Assembly: GCA_964016885.1 (NCBI GenBank)
Contig: OZ024747.1
Span: forward strand, 83,886,001-83,950,000
Reading direction: 5' to 3'
DNA length: 64,000 nucleotides
Source of the DNA: Eledone cirrhosa
Taxonomy: Eukaryota
Shown: positions 39,456 through 58,839 of the stretch, one piece after another
How positions within the stretch are numbered: the first letter of the stretch is position 1
How the letters are laid out: the number at the start of each line of letters is the position of its first letter
Program-made: the position numbers and the translations under genes
Notes under the pieces: generated by a model
What the model saw: only the letters and a program-made list of their open reading frames with translations
Told to the model about the DNA's origin: nothing
Database searches by the model: none

Positions 39456-42400
39456 CAACCCCTGCACACTATCACTCAGTATCACACACAGACACACTCA
39501 TGTTATATGTAACCCCTGCACACTATCACTCAGTATCACACACAGACACACTCACAGTTATATGTAACCCCTGCACACTATCACTGAGTATCACACACAG
39601 ACACACTCACAGTTATATGTAACCCCTGCACACTATCACTCAGTATCACACACAGACACACTCACAGTTATATGTAACCCCTGCACACTATCACTCAGTA
39701 TCACACACAGACACACTCACAGTTATATATAACCCCTGCACACTATCACTCAGTATCACACACAGACACACTCACAGTTATATGTAACCCCTGCACACTA
39801 TCACTCAGTATCACACACAGACACACTCACAGTTATATGTAACCCCTGCACACTATCACTCAGTATCACACACAGACACACTCACAGTTATATATAACCC
39901 CTGCACACTATCACTCAGTATCACACACAGACACACTCACAGTTATATATAACCCCTGCACACTATCACTCAGTATCACACAGACACACTCACAGTAATA
40001 TGCAACCCCTGCACACTATCACTCAGTATCACACAGACACACTCACAGTTATATGTAACCCCTGCACACTATCACTCAGTATCACACACAGACACACTCA
40101 CAGTTATATGTAACCCCTGCACACTATCACTCAGTATCACACACAGACACACTCACAGTTATATATAACCCCTGCACACTATCACTCAGTATCACACACA
40201 GACACACTCACAGTTATATGTAACCCCTGCACACTATCACTCAGTATCACACAGACACACTCATGTTATATGTAACCCCTGCACACTATCACTCAGTATC
40301 ACACACAGACACACTCACAGTTATATGTAACCCCTGCACACTATCACTCAGTATCACACACAGACACACTCACAGTTATATATAACCCCTGCACACTATC
40401 ACTCAGTATCACACACAGACACACTCACAGTTATATGTAACCCCTGCACACTATCACTCAGTATCACACAGACACACTCATGTTATATGTAACCCCTGCA
40501 CACTATCACTCAGTATCACACACAGACACACTCACAGTTATATGTAACCCCTGCACACTATCACTCAGTATCACACACAGACACACTCACAGTTATATAT
40601 AACCCCTGCACACTATCACTCAGTATCACACACAGACACACTCACAGTTATATGTAACCCCTGCACACTATCACTCAGTATCACACAGACACACTCACAG
40701 TTATATATAACCCCTGCACACTATCACTCAGTATCACACAGACACACTCATGTTATATGTAACCCCTGCACACTATCACTGAGTATCACACACAGACACA
40801 CTCACAGTTATATGTAACCCCTGCACACTATCACTCAGTATCACACACAGACACACTCACAGTTATATGTAACCCCTGCACACTATCACTCAGTATCACA
40901 CACAGACACACTCATGTTATATGTAACCCCTGCACACTATCACTCAGTATCACACAGACACACTCACAGTAATATGCAACCCCTGCACACTATCACTCAG
41001 TATCACACAGACACACTCACAGTTATATATAACCCCTGCACACTATCACTCAGTATCACACACAGACACACTCACAGTTATATGTAACCCCTGCACACTA
41101 TCACTCAGTATCACACACAGACACACTCACAGTTATATGTAACCCCTGCACACTATCACTCAGTATCACACACAGACACACTCATGTTATATGTAACCCC
41201 TGCACACTATCACTCAGTATGACACACAGACACACTCACAGTTATATGTAACCCCTGCACACTATCACTCAGTATCACACACAGACACACTCACAGTTAT
41301 ATGTAACCCCTGCACACTATCACTCAGTATCACACACAGACACACTCACAGTTATATGTAACCGCACACACTATCACTCAGTATCACACACAGACGCTCT
41401 CACAGTTATATGTAACCCCTGCACACTATCACTCAGTATCACACACAGACACACTCATGTTATATGTAACCCCTGCACACTATCACTCAGTATCACACGC
41501 AGACACACTCACAGTTATATGTAACCGCACACACTATCACTCAGTATCACACACAGACACACTCACAGTTATATGTAACCCCTGCACACTATCACTGAGT
41601 ATCACACACAGACACACTCACAGTTATATGTAACCCCTGCACACTATCACTCAGTATCACACACAGACACACTCACAGTTATATGTAACCGCACACACTA
41701 TCACTCAGTATCACACACAGACACTCTCACAGTTATATGTAACCCCTCACACTATCACTCAGTATCACACACAGACACACTCATGTTATATGTAACCCCT
41801 GCACACTATCACTCAGTATCACACAGACACACTCACAGTTATATGTAACCCCTGCACACTATCACTCAGTATCACACACAGACACTCTCACAGTTATATG
41901 TAACCGCACACACTATCACTCAGTATCACACACAGACACTCTCACAGTTATATGTAACCGCACACACTATCACTCAGTATCACACACAGACACTCTCACA
42001 GTTATATGTAACCCCTGCACACTATCACTCAGTATCACACAGACACACTCACAGTTATATGTAACCCCTGCACACTATCACTCAGTATCACACACAGACA
42101 CACTCACAGTTATATGTAACCCCTGCACACTATCACTCAATATCACACACAGACACACTCACAGTTATATGTAACCCCTGCACACTATCACTCAGTATCA
42201 CACACAGACACACTCACAGTTATATGTAACCCCTGCACACTATCACTCAGTATCACACACAGACACTCTCACAGTTATATGTAACCGCACACACTATCAC
42301 TCAGTATCACACAGACACACTCACAGTTATATGTAACCCCTGCACACTATCACTCAATATCACACACAGACACACTCACAGTTATATATAACCCCTGCAC

Positions 42401-45400
42401 ACTATCACTCAGTATCACACACAGACACACTCACAGTTATATGTAACCGCACACACTATCACTCAGTATCACACACAGACACACTCACAGTTATATGTAA
42501 CCCCTGCACACTATCACCCAGTATCACACACAGACACACTCACAGTTATATGTAACCCCTGCACACTATCACTCAGTATCACACACAGACACACTCACAT
42601 TTATATGTAACCCCTGCACACTATCACTCAGTATCACACACAGACACACTCACAGTTATATGTAACCCCTGCACACTATCACTCAGTATCACACACAGAC
42701 ACTCTCACAGTTATATGTAACCCCTGCACACTATCACTCAATATCACACACAGACACACTCACAGTTATATATAACCCCTGCACACTATCACTCAATATC
42801 ACACACAGACACACTCACATTTATATGTAACCCCTGCACACTATCACTCAGTATCACACACAGACACACTCACAGTTATATGTAACCCCTGCACACTATC
42901 ACTCAGTATCACACACAGACACTCTCACAGTTATATGTAACCCCTGCACACTATCACTCAGTATCACACACAGACACACTCACAGTTATATGTAACCCCT
43001 GCACACTATCACTCAGTATCACACACAGACACTCTCACAGTTATATGTAACCCCTGCACACTATCACTCAGTATCACACACAGACACTCTCACAGTTATA
43101 TGTAACCCCTGCACACTATCACTCAGTATCACACACAGACACACTCACAGTTATATGTAACCCCTGCACACTATCACTCAGTATCACACACAGACACTCT
43201 CACAGTTATATGTAACCCCTGCACACTATCACTCAATATCACACACAGACACACTCACAGTTATATATAACCCCTGCACACTATCACTCAATATCACACA
43301 CAGACACACTCACAGTTATATGTAACCCCTGCACACTATCACTCAGTATCACACAGACACACTCACAGTTATATGTAACCCCTGCACACTATCACTCAGT
43401 ATCACACAGACACACTCACAGTTATATGTAACCCCTGCACACTATCACTCAGTATCACACACAGACACACTCACATTTATATGTAACCCCTGCACACTAT
43501 CACTCAGTATCACACAGACACACTCACAGTTATATGTAACCCCTGCACACTATCACTCAGTATCACACACAGACACACTCACAGTTATATGTAACCCCTG
43601 CACACTATCACTCAGTATCACACACAGACACACTCACATTTATATGTAACCCCTGCACACTATCACTCAGTATCACACAGACACACTCACAGTTATATGT
43701 AACCCCTGCACACTATCACTCAGTATCACACACAGACACACTCACAGTTATATGTAACCCCTGCACACTATCACTCAGTATCACACACAGACACACTCAC
43801 AGTTATATGTAACCCCTGCACACTATCACTCAGTATCACACAGACACACTCACAGTTATATGTAACCCCTGCACACTATCACTCAGTATCACACAGACAC
43901 ACTCACAGTTATATGTAACCCCTGCACACTATCACTCAGTATCACACACAGACACACTCACAGTTATATGTAACCCCTGCACACTATCACTCAGTATCAC
44001 ACACAGACACACTCACAGTTATATGTAACCCCTGCACACTATCACTCAGTATCACACACAGACACACTCACAGTTATATGTAACCCCTGCACACTATCAC
44101 TCAGTATCACACACAGACACACTCACAGTTATATGTAACCCCTGCACACTATCACTCAATATCACACACAGACACACTCACAGTTATATGTAACCCCTGC
44201 ACACTATCACTCAATATCACACACAGACACACTCACAGTTATATGTAACCCCTGCACACTATCACTCAGTATCACACACAGACACACTCACAGTTATATG
44301 TAACCCCTGCACACTATCACTCAGTATCACACACAGACACACTCACATTTATATGTAACCCCTGCACACTATCACTCAGTATCACACACAGACACACTCA
44401 CATTTATATGTAACCCCTGCACACTATCACTCAGTATCACACAGACACACTCACAGTTATATGTAACCCCTGCACACTATCACTCAGTATCACACACAGA
44501 CACACTCACAGTTATATGTAACCCCTGCACACTATCACTCAGTATCACACACAGACACACTCACAGTTATATGTAACCCCTGCACACTATCACTCAGTAT
44601 CACACACAGACACACTCACAGTTATATGTAACCCCTGCACACTATCACTCAGTATCACACACAGACACACTCACATTTATATGTAACCCCTGCACACTAT
44701 CACTCAGTATCACACAGACACACTCACAGTTATATGTAACCCCTGCACACTATCACTCAGTATCACACACAGACACACTCACAGTTATATGTAACCCCTG
44801 CACACTATCACTCAGTATCACACACAGACACACTCACATTTATATGTAACCCCTGCACACTATCACTCAGTATCACACAGACACACTCACAGTTATATGT
44901 AACCCCTGCACACTATCACTCAGTATCACACAGACACACTCACAGTTATATATAACCCCTGCACACTATCACTCAGTATCACACACAGACACACTCACAT
45001 TTATATGTAACCCCTGCACACTATCACTCAGTATCACACACAGACACACTCACATTTATATGTAACCCCTGCACACTATCACTCAGTATCACACAGACAC
45101 ACTCACAGTTATATGTAACCCCTGCACACTATCACCCAGTATCACACACAGACACACTCACAGTTATATGTAACCCCTGCACACTATCACTCAATATCAC
45201 ACACAGACACACTCACATTTATATGTAACCCCTGCACACTATCACTCAGTATCACACACAGACACACTCACATTTATATGTAACCCCTGCACACTATCAC
45301 TCAGTATCACACAGACACACTCACAGTTATATGTAACCCCTGCACACTATCACTCAGTATCACACACAGACACACTCACATTTATATGTAACCCCTGCAC

Positions 45401-48400
45401 ACTATCACTCAGTATCACACACAGACACACTCACAGTTATATGTAACCCCTGCACACTATCACTCAGTATCACACACAGACACACTCACAGTTATATGTA
45501 ACCCCTGCACACTATCACTCAGTATCACACACAGACACACTCACAGTTATATGTAACCCCTGCACACTATCACTCAGTATCACACACAGACACACTCACA
45601 TTTATATGTAACCCCTGCACACTATCACTCAGTATCACACACAGACACACTCACATTTATATGTAACCCCTGCACACTATCACTCAGTATCACACAGACA
45701 CACTCACAGTTATATGTAACCCCTGCACACTATCACCCAGTATCACACACAGACACACTCACAGTTATATGTAACCCCTGCACACTATCACTCAATATCA
45801 CACACAGACACACTCACATTTATATGTAACCCCTGCACACTATCACTCAGTATCACACACAGACACACTCACATTTATATGTAACCCCTGCACACTATCA
45901 CTCAGTATCACACAGACACACTCACAGTTATATGTAACCCCTGCACACTATCACTCAGTATCACACACAGACACACTCACATTTATATGTAACCCCTGCA
46001 CACTATCACTCAGTATCACACAGACACACTCACAGTTATATGTAACCCCTGCACACTATCACTCAGTATCACACACAGACACACTCACAGTTATATGTAA
46101 CCCCTGCACACTATCACTCAGTATCACACAGACACACTCACAGTTATATGTAACCCCTGCACACTATCACTCAGTATCACACACAGACACACTCACAGTT
46201 ATATGTAACCCCTGCACACTATCACTCAGTATCACACACAGACACACTCACAGTTATATGTAACCCCTGCACACTATCACTCAGTATCACGCACAGACAC
46301 ACTCACAGTTATATGTAACCCCTGCACACTATCACTCAGTATCACACACAGACACACTCACATTTATATGTAACCCCTGCACACTATCACTCAGTATCAC
46401 ACACAGACACACTCACAGTTATATGTAACCCCTGCACACTATCACTCAGTATCACACACAGACACACTCACAGTTATATGTAACCCCTGCACACTATCAC
46501 TCAGTATCACGCACAGACACACTCACAGTTATATGTAACCCCTGCACACTATCACTCAGTATCACACACAGACACACTCACAGTTATATGTAACCCCTGC
46601 ACACTATCACTCAGTATCACGCACAGACACACTCACAGTTATATGTAACCCCTGCACACTATCACTCAGTATCACGCACAGACACACTCACAGTTATATG
46701 TAACCCCTGCACACTATCACTCAGTATCACACACAGACACACTCACAGTTATATGTAACCCCTGCACACTATCACTCAGTATCACACAGACACACTCACA
46801 GTTATATGTAACCCCTGCACACTATCACTCAGTATCACACACAGACACACTCACAGTTATATGTAACCGCACACACTATCACTCAGTATCACACACAGAC
46901 ACACTCACAGTTATATGTAACCCCTGCACACTATCACTGAGTATCACACACAGACACACTCACAGTTATATGTAACCCCTGCACACTATCACTCAGTATC
47001 ACACACAGACACACTCACAGTTATATGTAACCCCTGCACACTATCACTCAGTATCACACACAGACACACTCACAGTTATATGTAACCCCTGCACACTATC
47101 ACTCAGTATCACACACAGACACACTCACAGTTATATGTAACCTCTGCACACTATCACTCAGTATCACACACAGACACACTCACAGTTATATGTAACCTCT
47201 GCACACTATCACTCAGTATCACACACAGACACACTCACAGTTATATGTAACCCCTGCACACTATCACTCAATATCACACACAGACACACTCACAGTTATA
47301 TGTAACCGCACACACTATCACTCAGTATCACACACAGACACACTCACAGTTATATGTAACCCCTGCACACTATCACTGAGTATCACACACAGACACACTC
47401 ACAGTTATATGTAACCCCTGCACACTATCACTCAGTATCACACACAGACACACTCACAGTTATATGTAACCCCTGCACACTATCACTCAGTATCACACAC
47501 AGACACACTCACAGTTATATGTAACCCCTGCACACTATCACTCAGTATCACACACAGACACACTCACAGTTATATGTAACCTCTGCACACTATCACTCAG
47601 TATCACACACAGACACACTCACAGTTATATGTAACCTCTGCACACTATCACTCAGTATCACACACAGACACACTCACAGTTATATGTAACCCCTGCACAC
47701 TATCACTCAGTATCACACACAGACACACTCACAGTTATATGTAACCCCTGCACACTATCACTCAGTATCACACACAGACACACTCACAGTTATATGTAAC
47801 CTCTGCACACTATCACTCAGTATCACACACAGACACACTCACAGTTATATGTAACCGCACACACTATCACTCAGTATCACACACAGACACACTCACAGTT
47901 ATATGTAACCTCTGCACACTATCACTCAGTATCACACACAGACACACTCACAGTTATATGTAACCGCACACACTATCACTCAGTATCACACACAGACACA
48001 CTCACAGTTATATGTAACCCCTGCACACTATCACTCAATATCACACACAGACACACTCACAGTTATATGTAACCGCACACACTATCACTCAGTATCACAC
48101 ACAGACACACTCACAGTTATATGTAACCCCTGCACACTATCACTGAGTATCACACACAGACACACTCACAGTTATATGTAACCCCTGCACACTATCACTC
48201 AGTATCACACACAGACACACTCACAGTTATATGTAACCCCTGCACACTATCACTCAGTATCACACACAGACACACTCACAGTTATATGTAACCCCTGCAC
48301 ACTATCACTCAGTATCACACACAGACACACTCACAGTTATATGTAACCTCTGCACACTATCACTCAGTATCACACACAGACACACTCACAGTTATATGTA

Positions 48401-51400
48401 ACCTCTGCACACTATCACTCAGTATCACACACAGACACACTCACAGTTATATGTAACCCCTGCACACTATCACTCAGTATCACACACAGACACACTCACA
48501 GTTATATGTAACCCCTGCACACTATCACTGAGTATCACACACAGACACACTCACAGTTATATGTAACCTCTGCACACTATCACTCAGTATCACACACAGA
48601 CACACTCACAGTTATATGTAACCGCACACACTATCACTCAGTATCACACACAGACACACTCACAGTTATATGTAACCTCTGCACACTATCACTCAGTATC
48701 ACACACAGACACTCTCACAGTTATATGTAACCCCTGCACACTATCACTCAGTATCACACACAGACACACTCATGTTATATGTAACCCCTGCACACTATCA
48801 CTCAGTATCACACAGACACACTCACAGTTATATGTAACCTCTGCACACTATCACTCAGTATCACACACAGACACACTCACAGTTATATGTAACCCCTCAC
48901 ACTATCACTCAGTATCACACACAGACACACTCACAGTTATATGTAACCCCTGCACACTATCACTGAGTATCACACACAGACACACTCACAGTTATATGTA
49001 ACCCCTCACACTATCACTCAGTATCACACACAGACACACTCACAGTTATATGTAACCCCTGCACACTATCACTCAGTATCACACACAGACACACTCATGT
49101 TATATGTAACCCCTGCACACTATCACTCAGTATCACACAGACACACTCACAGTTATATGTAACCCCTCACACTATCACTCAGTATCACACACAGACACAC
49201 TCACAGTTATATGTAACCCCTCACACTATCACTCAGTATCACACACAGACACACTCACAGTTATATGTAACCCCTGCACACTATCACTCAGTATCACACA
49301 CAGACACTCTCACAGTTATATGTAACCCCTGCACACTATCACTCAGTATCACACACAGACACACTCACAGTTATATGTAACCCCTCACACTATCACTCAG
49401 TATCACACACAGACACACTCACAGTTATATGTAACCCCTGCACACTATCACTGAGTATCACACACAGACACACTCACAGTTATATGTAACCCCTGCACAC
49501 TATCACTCAGTATCACACACAGACACACTCACAGTTATATGTAACCCCTGCACACTATCACTCAGTATCACACACAGACACACTCACAGTTATATGTAAC
49601 CCCTCACACTATCACTCAGTATCACACACAGACACACTCACAGTTATATGTAACCGCACACACTATCACTCAGTATCACACACAGACACACTCACAGTTA
49701 TATGTAACCCCTGCACACTATCACTGAGTATCACACACAGACACACTCACAGTTATATGTAACCGCACACACTATCACTCAGTATCACACACAGACACAC
49801 TCACAGTTATATGTAACCGCACACACTATCACTCAGTATCACACACAGACACACTCACAGTTATATGTAACCCCTGCACACTATCACTCAGTATCACACA
49901 CAGACACACTCACAGTTATATGTAACCCCTGCACACTATCACTCAATATCACACACAGACACACTCACAGTTATATGTAACCCCTGCACACTATCACTCA
50001 ATATCACACACAGACACACTCACAGTTATATGTAACCCCTGCACACTATCACTCAGTATCACACACAGACACACTCACAGTTATATGTAACCCCTGCACA
50101 CTATCACTCAATATCACACACAGACACACTCACAGTTATATGTAACCCCTGCACACTATCACTCAATATCACACACAGACACACTCACAGTTATATGTAA
50201 CCCCTGCACACTATCACTGAGTATCACACACAGACACACTCACAGTTATATGTAACCGCACACACTATCACTCAGTATCACACACAGACACACTCACAGT
50301 TATATGTAACCGCACACACTATCACTCAGTATCACACACAGACACACTCACAGTTATATGTAACCCCTGCACACTATCACTCAGTATCACACACAGACAC
50401 ACTCACAGTTATATGTAACCCCTGCACACTATCACTCAATATCACACACAGACACACTCACAGTTATATGTAACCCCTGCACACTATCACTCAATATCAC
50501 ACACAGACACACTCACAGTTATATGTAACCCCTGCACACTATCACTGAGTATCACACACAGACACACTCACAGTTATATGTAACCCCTGCACACTATCAC
50601 TGAGTATCACACACAGACACACTCACAGTTATATGTAACCCCTGCACACTATCACTCAGTATCACACACAGACACTCTCACAGTTATATGTAACCCCTGC
50701 ACACTATCACTCAGTATCACACACAGACACACTCACAGTTATATGTAACCCCTGCACACTATCACTCAGTATCACACACAGACACACTCACAGTTATATG
50801 TAACCCCTGCACACTATCACTCAGTATCACACACAGACACACTCACAGTTATATGTAACCCCTGCACACTATCACTCAGTATCACACAGACACACTCACA
50901 GTTATATGTAACCCCTGCACACTATCACTCAGTATCACACACAGACACACTCACAGTTATATGTAACCCCTGCACACTATCACTCAATATCACACACAGA
51001 CACACTCACAGTTATATGTAACCCCTGCACACTATCACTCAGTATCACACAGACACACTCACAGTTATATGTAACCCCTGCACACTATCACTCAATATCA
51101 CACACAGACACACTCACAGTTATATGTAACCCCTGCACACTATCACTCAGTATCACACAGACACACTCACAGTTATATGTAACCCCTGCACACTATCACT
51201 CAGTATCACACAGACACTCTCACAGTTATATGTAACCCCTGCACACTATCACTCAGTATCACACACAGACACTCTCACAGTTATATGTAACCCCTGCACA
51301 CTATCACTCAATATCACACACAGACACACTCACAGTTATATGTAACCCCTGCACACTATCACTCAGTATCACACACAGACACACTCACAGTTATATGTAA

Positions 51401-54400
51401 CCCCTGCACACTATCACTCAATATCACACACAGACACACTCACAGTTATATGTAACCCCTGCACACTATCACTCAGTATCACACACAGACACACTCACAG
51501 TTATATATAACCGCACACACTATCACTGAGTATCACACACAGACACACTCATGTTATATGTAACCCCTGCACACTATCACTCAGTATCACACACAGACAC
51601 ACTCACAGTTATATGTAACCCCTGCACACTATCACTCAGTATCACACACAGACACACTCATGTTATATGTAACCCCTGCACACTATCACTCAGTATCACA
51701 CAGACACACTCACAGTTATATGTAACCCCTGCACACTATCACTCAGTATCACACACAGACACACTCACAGTTATATGTAACCGCACACACTATCACTCAG
51801 TATCACACACAGACACACTCACAGTTATATGTAACCCCTGCACACTATCACTCAATATCACACACAGACACACTCACAGTTATATGTAACCGCACACACT
51901 ATCACTCAGTATCACACACAGACACACTCACAGTTATATGTAACCGCACACACTATCACTCAATATCACACACAGACACACTCACAGTTATATGTAACCC
52001 CTGCACACTATCACTCAGTATCACACACAGACACACTCACAGTTATATGTAACCCCTGCACACTATCACTCAATATCACACACAGACACACTCACAGTTA
52101 TATGTAACCCCTGCACACTATCACTCAGTATCACACACAGACACACTCACAGTTATATGTAACCCCTGCACACTATCACTCAGTATCACACACAGACACA
52201 CTCACAGTTATATGTAACCGCACACACTATCACTCAGTATCACACACAGACACACTCACAGTTATATGTAACCCCTGCACACTATCACTCAATATCACAC
52301 ACAGACACACTCACAGTTATATGTAACCGCACACACTATCACTCAGTATCACACACAGACACACTCACAGTTATATGTAACCCCTGCACACTATCACTCA
52401 GTATCACACACAGACACACTCACAGTTATATGTAACCCCTGCACACTATCACTCAATATCACACACAGACACACTCACAGTTATATGTAACCCCTGCACA
52501 CTATCACTCAGTATCACACACAGACACACTCACAGTTATATGTAACCCCTGCACACTATCACTCAATATCACACACAGACACACTCACAGTTATATGTAA
52601 CCCCTGCACACTATCACTCAGTATCACACACAGACACTCTCACAGTTATATGTAACCCCTGCACACTATCACTCAGTATCACACAGACACACTCATGTTA
52701 TATGTAACCCCTGCACACTATCACTCAATATCACACACAGACACACTCACAGTTATATGTAACCCCTGCACACTATCACTCAGTATCACACACAGACACA
52801 CTCACAGTTATATGTAACCCCTGCACACTATCACTCAGTATCACACACAGACACTCTCACAGTTATATGTAACCCCTGCACACTATCACTCAGTATCACA
52901 CACAGACACTCTCACAGTTATATGTAACCCCTGCACACTATCACTCAGTATCACACACAGACACTCTCACAGTTATATGTAACCCCTGCACACTATCACT
53001 CAGTATCACACACAGACACTCTCACAGTTATATGTAACCCCTGCACACTATCACTCAGTATCACACAGACACACTCATGTTATATGTAACCCCTGCACAC
53101 TATCACTCAGTATCACACACAGACACACTCACAGTTATATGTAACCCCTGCACACTATCACTCAGTATCACACACAGACACACTCATGTTATATGTAACC
53201 CCTGCACACTATCACTCAATATCACACACAGACACACTCACAGTTATATGTAACCCCTGCACACTATCACTCAGTATCACACACAGACACACTCACAGTT
53301 ATATGTAACCCCTGCACACTATCACTCAGTATCACACACAGACACACTCACAGTTATATGTAACCCCTGCACACTATCACTCAGTATCACACACAGACAC
53401 TCTCACAGTTATATGTAACCCCTGCACACTATCACTCAGTATCACACACAGACACTCTCACAGTTATATATAACCCCTGCACACTATCACTCAGTATCAC
53501 ACACAGACACACTCACAGTTATATGTAACCCCTGCACACTATCACTCAGTATCACACACAGACACACTCATGTTATATGTAACCCCTGCACACTATCACT
53601 CAGTATCACACAGACACACTCACAGTTATATGTAACCCCTGCACACTATCACTCAGTATCACACACAGACACACTCACAGTTATATATAACCCCTGCACA
53701 CTATCACTCAGTATCACACACAGACACTCTCACAGTTATATGTAACCCCTGCACACTATCACTCAGTATCACACAGACACACTCATGTTATATGTAACCC
53801 CTGCACACTATCACTCAATATCACACACAGACACACTCACAGTTATATGTAACCCCTGCACACTATCACTCAGTATCACACACAGACACACTCACAGTTA
53901 TATGTAACCCCTGCACACTATCACTCAGTATCACACACAGACACACTCACAGTTATATGTAACCGCACACACTATCACTCAGTATCACACAGACACACTC
54001 ACAGTTATATGTAACCCCTGCACACTATCACTCAGTATCACACACAGACACACTCACAGTTATATGTAACCGCACACACTATCACTCAGTATCACACAGA
54101 CACACTCACAGTTATATGTAACCCCTGCACACTATCACTCAGTATCACACACAGACACACTCACAGTTATATGTAACCCCTGCACACTATCACTCAGTAT
54201 CACACACAGACACACTCACAGTTATATGTAACCCCTGCACACTATCACTCAGTATCACACAGACACACTCACAGTTATATGTAACCCCTGCACACTATCA
54301 CTCAGTATCACACAGACACACTCATGTTATATGTAACCCCTGCACACTATCACTCAGTATCACACACAGACACACTCACAGTTATATGTAACCCCTGCAC

Positions 54401-54710
54401 ACTATCACTCAGTATCACACACAGACACACTCACAGTTATATGTAACCGCACACACTATCACTTAGTATCACACACAGACACACTCACAGTTATATGTAA
54501 CCCCTGCACACTATCACTCAGTATCACACACAGACACACTCACAGTTATATGTAACCGCACACACTATCACTTAGTATCACACACAGACACACTCACAGT
54601 TATATGTAACCCCTGCACACTATCACTCAGTATCACACACAGACACACTCACAGTTATATGTAACCCCTGCACACTATCAATCAGTATCACACACAGACA
54701 GACAGACAGT
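39456..54710. repeat. 55-bp satellite array, about 15.2 kb (about 280 monomers)
   Basis: Unit aacccctgcacactatcactcagtatcacacacagacacactcacagttatatgt, period 55 with 53-bp deletion variants. Confidence 0.98.
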
Positions 54711-57415: not shown

Positions 57416-57465
<50 letters not shown>

Positions 57466-57540
57466 TTGCGAGGTTTTTGATATGAAATCGTGTGGTCGAA
57501 ACAAATATTGTTATACTTGGGGGAGGGGGTGATATTGTTG

Positions 57541-57955
57541 TAATAATTGTTTCTACTTTTGGCACAAGGCCAGCAATTACCCAGTACATTACTGGTACTT
57601 TATTTTATCGACCTCGTAAGGATGAAAGGCAAAGTTAACCTTGGCGGGATTTGAACTCAGATCATAAAGGGGCGTAACTCTGTGCTGCAAAGCATAGCGT
57701 CCGACCCTCTACCGATACTGCCAATCCAACGTTGTAATAATATTGGTTTCCTATATAGGCACAAGGCCAGTGATTTTGGGGGAGGAGAAAGTCTATTAAA
57801 CCGACCCCAGTGCGTGACTGGTACTTTATTTTATCAACCCCATGAGGATGAAAGGCAAAGTTAACCTTCGCGGGATTTGAACTCAGAACGTAAATGACCA
57901 TAACTCTATGCCGCTAAGCGTGTTGTCCGACGCTCTACCGATTCTGCCAATCCAA
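57541..57955 (-). mobile_element. two tandem tRNA-derived SINEs
   Basis: Copies at 57541-57728 and 57740-57955, both followed by 'ccaatccaacgttgtaataatatt'. Confidence 0.85.
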
Positions 57956-58010
57956 CGTTGTAATAATATTGTCAACCAAACAGTGCGTGTGTATACATAT
58001 ATATATATCG

Positions 58011-58579
58011 CTGGAGTAGGTAAATATTTCAATTATATTTTTTTATTTATTTTAAAAAATTGTTTGAATTTTGCTTGTTCTGCTTATCTCAATATTATAG
58101 TTCTGGTATGTCAAATTAATACCATTGAACAACCCTGTATCATAGACAACCTATATATTTCCAGGGGTACTTAGTACCCGTGGGCATATTAACTTCATTT
58201 AATATTCCCCGTTATGTAGAGAACAAATCTGTTGTTCTATTTGGCTGCTATTTTTAGTGGCGGTGTAGACAACACGTCTATGTTTACTTCCGCTTTTGCT
58301 ACGGACTGGTTGAAGTATAGGTCAAATTTTGGCCTCATTCGATCCTGTACTAGCTAGCAGATGGCAATATATTTTGCCGTTCCTGGGACTTTTTGTCCTA
58401 GGAAAGGAAAATGCTCTCTGATGAACTTCACTTTTCCATTGGAGGTCCCTTGGATTTCTAATGTTTTGTGAAGCGAAACCGATCGGTAAAAGCACTGGAG
58501 TAGGTAAATATTTAAATTATATTTTTTAATTTATTTTTAAAAATTGTTTGAATTTTGCTTGTTCTGCTTATCTCAATAT
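58011..58579 (+). mobile_element. retrozyme-like element, 484-bp unit plus 85-bp terminal redundancy (family G)
   Basis: 58011-58095 repeated at 58495-58579; HHR immediately before the repeat; (TA)n flanks. Confidence 0.85.
58412..58494 (+). ncRNA. type I hammerhead ribozyme with extended stem II
   Basis: TGCTCT-CTGATGA-a cttcac..cattggag gtcc ctt ggat ttctaatg..gtgaag c-GAAA-CCGATCGG-TA-AAAGCA. Confidence 0.85.
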
Positions 58580-58839
58580 ATATATACATATATATATATA
58601 TATACATATATATATACATAATATATACAAATAAAGAATTTGGTCTTTAATATAAAGAATAAATATGGTTTTATAAATATAGTTTCAATTTGTTAATATC
58701 GTATTTTTACTCCAAATATTTGTTGAGTGCTTTATATCAGTTATAAAAATATTTGTTTGTTGTATCCCAACAATTTAAATAGAACTTTTACATATATAAA
58801 TATATATATATACATATATAATATATATATATATATATA

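What the first reader, a model, noticed from the sequence alone, without database searches (positions are those of the whole stretch)
58011..58579. Clearest retrozyme: insert starts 6 nt after the ribozyme cleavage site and runs 1.18 units
Predicted cleavage is 58488|58489, and the repeated block starts at 58495, matching the element's 5' end at 58011. This is what a cleaved monomer of about 484 nt, copied past its junction, would leave. There is no coding capacity, the HHR has an extended bulged stem II and a CCGATCGG palindrome, and both flanks are TA tracts.
Basis: partly seen in the sequence, partly recalled or inferred. Interest (0 to 1): 0.75.

Follow-up and report, generated by a model that had tools for sequence, protein, structure and literature searches.

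The report
Truncated Penelope-type hammerhead retrozyme copy
This is one shortened copy of a common, protein-free jumping repeat that carries a predicted self-cutting RNA motif and is likely copied by a Penelope-type transposon enzyme; its many sister copies share fixed right ends but scattered left ends, so its start next to the predicted cut site is likely chance.

Summary
The anatomy is real: a type I hammerhead (cut predicted 58488|58489), an 85-nt direct repeat, period 484, TA flanks, no ORF. It belongs to a dispersed family (886 intact-core matches of this hammerhead shape). The fixed ends are the 3' ends, at unit +91 or +191 to +203 (+1 = first base after the cut), always against (TA)n; 5' ends scatter. 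At the cut site, 8 of 76 crossings stop nearby in window-type copies (4.3 expected, p 0.06) and 3 of 87 in a younger sister subfamily (3.0 expected). The 1.18 units are one unit plus the 91-nt stretch to the first start site, less 6 nt. In 49 of 55 two-armed insertions with one end at +91, the other end is at +191 to +203: the Penelope 'tail' footprint. Repeats inside one insertion agree (24 of 1145 polymorphic sites differ, 30% between insertions), which favours a monomer or circle step, unproven. No RNA or cleavage data. This scan already reported the same footprint for other units in this and other genomes. Verdict: new member of the animal non-LTR retrozymes.

The parts
58011..58579 (+). 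Whole insertion: one 484-nt unit plus 85 nt; runs from unit +7 round to unit +91
   Evidence: flanks differ between copies
58011..58095 (+). First copy of the 85-nt repeat (unit +7 to +91); 5' end is a truncation point
   Evidence: 5' ends of 75 copies scatter
58495..58579 (+). Second copy of the repeat; ends at the family's first fixed 3' end (+91)
   Evidence: 75 exact genome matches to this end plus TA, 0 for the reversed control
58412..58494 (+). Type I hammerhead motif with 50-nt stem II; A.C at the base of stem II, one C.A in stem I
   Evidence: covariation in 40 family sequences
58478..58487 (.). 10-nt palindrome of stem III; would allow pairing of two hammerheads (inferred)
   Evidence: two-sided change C-G to T-A in the sister subfamily
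58488..58489 (+). Predicted self-cleavage site (GUA^); intact in the DNA
   Evidence: motif position; cleavage untested
58575..58579 (+). AATAT at the 3' junction: inferred first start site of reverse transcription, overlapping the TA target
   Evidence: unpaired, 3' of a hairpin in the predicted circle
58195..58205 (+). Unit +191 to +201: the family's second fixed 3' end, internal in this copy
57992..58008 (.). Short left TA tract; 17 nt identical to 58583-58599, a possible target duplication that cannot be told from chance in a microsatellite
58580..58633 (.). Right TA tract, the inferred target

Best explanation
The element is a 5'-truncated copy of a dispersed, non-coding 484-nt hammerhead repeat that was likely inserted into a (TA)n tract by a borrowed Penelope-like reverse transcriptase/endonuclease, likely copying a circular form of the RNA. 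Shown: family of copies, two fixed 3' ends (+91 and +191 to +203) against (TA)n, scattered 5' ends, intact read-through of the cut site, two-armed insertions that use one fixed end on each side, matching repeats inside an insertion. Inferred: the enzyme nicks the TA tract, primes at an AAUAU-like unpaired site inside the RNA, copies backwards across the joined cut site and falls off at a random point, here +7; the opposite strand is often primed at the other site and gives the inverted arm, absent here. Inferred from known retrozymes: multi-unit transcripts cut themselves, probably as hammerhead dimers through the palindrome, and are ligated to circles. This copy has one hammerhead with two mismatches and could not release a monomer alone.
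For: 3' ends fixed: 75 and 452 exact matches for the +91 end in two subfamilies, 252 partly overlapping matches for the second end, reversed controls 0. 5' ends: 37-1050 nt in 75 window-type copies, up to about 20 units in the sister subfamily; 59 of 66 and 84 of 87 crossings read through. Two-armed: 24 of 75 and 31 of 93 insertions; far end at +191 to +203 in 22 of 24 and 27 of 31; from the other side, 25 of 31 two-armed copies anchored at the second end show +91 to +95 at the far end (8 of these loci are also in the sister set). Same two-start 'tail' and internal initiation shown in vitro for a Penelope-like protein (PMC11167929). [quoted passage not shown] Monomer step: 24 of 1145 family-polymorphic sites differ between tandem repeats of one insertion against 30% for random pairs; 6 of 25 young insertions with overlap carry a variant found in all their repeats and in none of the other sampled insertions; the cut junction is precise in all 68 young read-throughs. 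Fold z -7.2; 10 of 26 hammerhead pairs change on both sides.
Against: No RNA, circle or cleavage was seen. The unit has no sequence likeness to the one autonomous family examined, so the partner is not identified; only 2 direct junctions (L025, L010) among 89 window-type loci, both open to other readings. A 20-unit array has units that recur in blocks and another alternates one base over four units: not laps round one monomer, and long arrays could give linear multi-unit templates. 16 private variants lie in only some repeats of an insertion against 6 in all, and 'private' is relative to 44 sampled insertions. Window-type repeats within an insertion differ by 2.5%, no less than nearest other copies (1.8%). 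A weak excess of stops near the cut (p 0.06) remains in window-type copies. The hammerhead was dispensable for insertion in vitro in PMC11167929.
Confidence: 0.55

Rival explanations
1. Same Penelope-type enzyme and start sites, but the template is an uncut linear transcript of several units from a tandem source locus; the hammerhead and any circle play no part in insertion.
For: A young array of about 20 units exists; arrays of 3-4 units are common in the sister subfamily. In vitro, uncut RNA was the main substrate (PMC11167929); 8 of 9 Xenopus retrozyme dimers did not cleave (bioRxiv 10.64898/2026.07.22.740005). The base of stem II is unpaired in 28 of 40 family sequences.
Against: The long array's marked units (a deletion in 5 of 16, a four-change type in 2 of 15 of the stretch in L362) appear in 0 of 44 and 0 of 47 sites in 43 other young insertions. 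Subfamilies up to 21% apart each have matching repeats, which needs a one-unit bottleneck at some point. The hammerhead keeps its pairs by two-sided changes.
Confidence: 0.3
2. One reading: this copy's 5' end marks a ribozyme cut, on a linear RNA cut at the upstream hammerhead and uncut at the downstream one.
For: Starts at +7; other single-armed copies start at +1 (L199), +7, +9, +10, +10, +13; 8 of 76 against 4.3 expected in window-type copies.
Against: 3 of 87 against 3.0 expected in the sister set; pooled 11 of 163 against 7.2, p 0.11. A similar cluster lies at one unit length (6 of 24), at a TA-like stretch far from the cut, so joining by likeness to the target can make such clusters.
Confidence: 0.1
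3. The repeat spreads at DNA level (satellite exchange, rolling-circle DNA transposition or segmental duplication), without an RNA step.
For: Some loci are plain segmental duplicates (L275-L277, L201-L202) and the 20-unit array shows block repeats.
Against: Fixed 3' ends, random 5' ends, inverted arms, unrelated flanks and a strand-specific conserved RNA fold are marks of target-primed reverse transcription.
Confidence: 0.05

Closest known systems
Metazoan non-LTR retrozymes (Cervera and de la Pena 2020, PMC7229834; parts 2-4 of 6 read: results and discussion)
   Same: Non-coding, GC under 50%, tandem units each with a type I hammerhead, strongly self-paired, in a genome with autonomous Penelope-like elements.
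   Different: Unit 484 nt against about 170-400 nt there; 50-nt stem II; mostly 0.2-2 unit dispersed copies; circles and cleavage are shown there and untested here; insertion ends were not analysed in the parts read.
Retrozymes as non-autonomous Penelope-like elements (Li, Clavereau, Pollet 2026, bioRxiv 10.64898/2026.07.22.740005; parts 1-3 of 5 read: abstract to discussion; supplements closed)
   Same: Same conclusion on the mobilising enzyme; unit length inside their 51-972 bp range.
   Different: Their evidence is co-occurrence and pLTR homology; here there is no homology to the autonomous family tested and the evidence is the insertion footprint. This copy fails their 'active' rule (two consecutive hammerheads).
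EN+ Penelope-like insertion unit: partial tandems, inverted 5'-truncated copy, tail (Craig et al. 2021, PMC8557442, passages read; Frangieh et al. 2024, PMC11167929, parts 1-2 of 4 read)
   Same: Two internal start sites downstream of the hammerhead, AT-rich or (TA)n targets, inverted arms, read-through of the hammerhead.
   Different: No ORF; the tail is about 100-110 nt against 30-40 nt; the two sites are used one per side of an insertion, whereas in vitro no strand difference was seen; a 4-5 nt likeness to the target is present at the first site.
Type I hammerheads of metazoans and Penelope-like elements (Cervera and de la Pena 2014, PMC4209133; passages read)
   Same: Short palindromic helix III thought to work as a dimer; long helix II.
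   Different: G10.1-C11.1, called highly conserved there, is lost in this copy's lineage and kept in the young sister subfamily.

Membership tests
Non-LTR retrozyme | Type I hammerhead once per repeat unit | tested here: met
Non-LTR retrozyme | Head-to-tail tandem units of a few hundred bases | tested here: met
   Window type up to 2.2 units; sister subfamily up to about 20
Non-LTR retrozyme | No protein, GC under 50% | tested here: met
   Longest stop-free frame 64 aa; GC 36%
Non-LTR retrozyme | Highly self-paired monomer | tested here: met
   z -7.2, 0 of 100 shuffles
Non-LTR retrozyme | Expressed as linear and circular monomer RNA | not testable with these tools
   No RNA data were at hand
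Non-LTR retrozyme | Self-cleavage | not testable with these tools
   Needs in vitro transcription
Non-LTR retrozyme | Target duplication longer than 4 bp when present | tested here: inconclusive
   17-nt match inside TA tracts
'Active' retrozyme locus (Li et al. 2026) | Two consecutive units with complete hammerheads | tested here: not met
   This copy has one; other family loci have two or more
Type I hammerhead | Core CUGANGA, GAAA, NUH in type I order with three stems | tested here: met
   Rfam gives no match at gathering score
Type I hammerhead | G10.1-C11.1 pair closing stem II | tested here: not met
   A.C here; G-C in 13 of 92 distinct family motifs and in the young sister subfamily
Type I hammerhead | Stems kept by covariation | tested here: met
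   10 of 26 pairs with two-sided change, 7 of 500 shuffles as high; sequences are related, so not a probability
Penelope-like insertion footprint | Two fixed 3' ends (tail), 5' truncation, inverted arms, microsatellite target | tested here: met
Autonomous Penelope-like element | ORF with RT and GIY-YIG endonuclease between pLTRs | tested here: not met
   No ORF in the unit; units join directly
Derivative of a Penelope pLTR | Sequence likeness to the pLTR of an autonomous element | tested here: inconclusive
   None to the one family examined; other Penelope families of the genome were not examined

The most novel reading that the evidence does not exclude
One ribonucleoprotein with two reverse-transcriptase sites holds a single RNA circle and starts at two fixed points about 105 nt apart, one for each strand of the target cut; this one-site-per-strand rule (49 of 55 insertions, at most 1 using the first site twice) would explain the Penelope tail and inverted arms, and the family would give a 485-nt template to test rolling-circle target-primed reverse transcription directly.
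Probability: 0.35. Interest if true: 0.65.

Novelty: new member of a known kind. Interest (0 to 1): 0.36.

Why it matters
Papers propose that Penelope-like enzymes copy retrozyme circles but the ones read do not show it. This family adds a genome-scale footprint (two fixed starts, one per side) and a young, near-identical subfamily that is a ready template for an in vitro test. The single copy in the window proves nothing by itself, and the scan has noted the same footprint for other units, so the added value is moderate. It also shows that a 5' end near a hammerhead cut should not be read as evidence of cleavage without a family-wide count.

Tried and rejected
Rfam scan of the window: no match. 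Sequencing runs: no RNA holder listed, three runs of unknown kind from one study; no reads were laid, so expression is open. Homology to the autonomous element: none. The partner's protein: Pfam RVT_1 only below cut-off (E 1.5e-4 to 2e-3, 3 of 4 pieces), two weak RT matches among solved structures; its clade label rests on the linker motif described in PMC8557442, no tree was built. Chimeric junctions as proof of the partner: most contacts are tail-to-tail through short TA tracts, only L025 and L010 lack one: suggestive only. My early idea that no long source arrays exist was wrong. One search's pattern missed the window's own variant and was not used for counts. One search's script failed and was redone. 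Rows dropped before counts: 3 of 51 single-armed window-type copies whose alignment stops at a subfamily insertion; 7 of 100 sister anchors (6 duplicates, 1 cut by a run of N), 2 of 56 too short to chain, and copies with short inverted arms were left out of the 10 crossings added. Only the first 100 of 452 sister ends, in genome order, were examined. Two-armed insertions were left out of the stop counts. No look-alike earlier finding by sequence or nearby.

Full report
Observation. The coordinates hold. The window carries CTGATGA at 58418, a 50-nt stem II, GAAA at 58475, the palindrome CCGATCGG at 58479-58486 and GTA at 58486-58488, so a type I hammerhead would cut at 58488|58489. An 85-nt repeat (96%) lies at 58011 and 58495, 484 nt apart. 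The longest stop-free frame is 64 aa. A strict descriptor finds this site alone in the window and none in 100 shuffles. The unit folds far better than shuffles (z -7.2). Two flaws were missed: an A.C mismatch where hammerheads have G10.1-C11.1 and a C.A mismatch in stem I. Below, +1 is the first base after the predicted cut; the insertion runs from +7 round to +91.

Family. A DNA search of the own genome gave 73 matches from 40 scored of 2189 candidates. The hammerhead shape with an intact core matches 886 times (a few belong to other repeats). A younger sister subfamily, 485 nt and 79% identical to this unit, has near-identical copies, a G-C pair at the base of stem II and a palindrome changed on both sides. 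On 40 diverse hammerheads, 10 of 26 pairs change on both sides and 88.8% of cells pair; the base of stem II is unpaired in 28 of 40. The sequences are related, so this is support, not a probability.

Which end is fixed. The 3' ends are. The +91 end followed by TA matches exactly 75 times for the window type and 452 times for the sister spelling; a second end at about +191 to +203 gives 252 partly overlapping matches; reversed controls give 0. With copies anchored at the 3' end, so without bias on length, 5' ends scatter: 37-1050 nt in 75 window-type copies and up to about 20 units in the sister set. The '1.18 units' are therefore one unit plus the 91 nt up to the first fixed end, less 6 nt.

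Do 5' ends mark the cut? In 48 single-armed window-type copies, 7 of 66 crossings of a cut site stop within 20 nt 3' of it (3.7 expected) and 59 read through. Adding 10 crossings from copies anchored at the second end gives 8 of 76, p 0.06. In 62 single-armed sister insertions, 3 of 87 stop within 17 nt (3.0 expected, p 0.57) and 84 read through; 10 of 97 stop in the A/T run just beyond, p 0.10. Pooled: 11 of 163 against 7.2, p 0.11. A cluster as strong lies at one unit length, at a TA-like stretch (6 of 24). The start at +7 is most likely an ordinary truncation.

Penelope footprint. 24 of 75 window-type and 31 of 93 sister insertions carry an inverted second arm. Its far end is at +191 to +203 in 22 of 24 and 27 of 31; at most one uses the first site on both sides. 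Anchored at the second end, 25 of 31 two-armed copies show +91 to +95 at the far end, 3 ran beyond the stretch scored (8 loci are shared with the sister set). Partial tandems, inverted 5'-truncated copies, a tail at one end and microsatellite targets are the described structure of endonuclease-bearing Penelope-like elements (PMC8557442, passages). In vitro, such a protein nicks AT-rich DNA, extends both strands and starts at two internal sites that delimit the tail, with the hammerhead dispensable (PMC11167929). Both sites here fall in unpaired stretches 3' of hairpins in the predicted circle of both subfamilies.

Partner. One copy (L025) abuts a fragment of an autonomous element. [quoted passage not shown] It shares no sequence with the unit. 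Junctions without a TA tract occur at L025 and L010 among 89 loci. It shows that suitable machinery with the same target is present; it is not shown to be the partner.

Circle or line. For a monomer step: tandem repeats inside one insertion differ at 24 of 1145 family-polymorphic sites against 30% for random pairs; in L167 the two arms differ at 2 of 413 sites and share five rare variants; 6 of 25 young insertions with overlap carry a variant in all repeats and in no other sampled insertion; all 68 young junctions are precise, which argues against end-to-end jumps between cut monomers. Against: 16 private variants lie in only some repeats; a 20-unit array has marked units recurring in blocks and L264 alternates one base over four units, so multi-unit templates or DNA-level duplication also act. 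The long array's marked units are absent from 43 other young insertions, so it is not their main source. I put the circle at slightly better than even.

Comparison and novelty. The element meets the sequence-level features of animal non-LTR retrozymes (PMC7229834), for which circles are shown and Penelope mobilisation is proposed; a 2026 preprint argues for Penelope origin from co-occurrence and pLTR homology. Palindromic helix III and dimer cleavage are known (PMC4209133, passages). In six searches (listings only, apart from the five papers named) I saw no title or abstract on this family or on a one-site-per-strand rule; the library lacks most subscription papers. The host looks like a cephalopod by a recalled SINE likeness and by the wording of earlier notes; this was not tested. 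Earlier scan notes describe the same two-armed footprint for 310-, 422-, 467- and 518-601-nt units in this genome and for 473-535-nt units in others; my reading was set before the first look-up, and these notes are unchecked. Verdict: a real, ordinary member of a known kind whose family data are more telling than this copy; interest 0.36.

Noticed in passing
window 57463-57545 (-): 3' end and tail of the autonomous Penelope-like family (88%), in the TA tract 470 nt upstream; a 20-nt piece resembling the same element's end lies at about 57974-57993, just left of the insertion.
   Followed up: partly
window 57535-57975: Two tandem copies of a SINE-like repeat, period 226, 86%; the SINE label is recalled.
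   Followed up: no
window 9741 (-) and 9758 (+): Back-to-back pair of short hammerhead-like cores; the same motif flanks L128 as an inverted pair: another small family.
   Followed up: no
window 23252 (+), 11485 (-), 38169 (+) and 34720 (-): Further hammerhead-like cores; the last two are an inverted duplicate.
   Followed up: no
window 39457-54700: 55-bp satellite, about 280 copies, 96% matches, strongly skewed.
   Followed up: no
L344 and L362: Young array of about 20 sister units from +15 to +92, with marked units recurring as a four-unit block.
   Followed up: partly
L264: One base alternates over four consecutive units, as a two-unit template or a two-unit duplication would give.
   Followed up: partly
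L171, L173, L215, L225: The two arms meet at or beside the stem III palindrome, where the two new strands could anneal.
   Followed up: no
L014:1565-1693: Short duplication exactly at the hammerhead junction, replacing the palindrome.
   Followed up: no
L145, L160 (pLTR region): The autonomous family has a minimal hammerhead-like core with a bulged base before stem II, and its second 3' end falls at an ATG that precedes the ORF region.
   Followed up: partly
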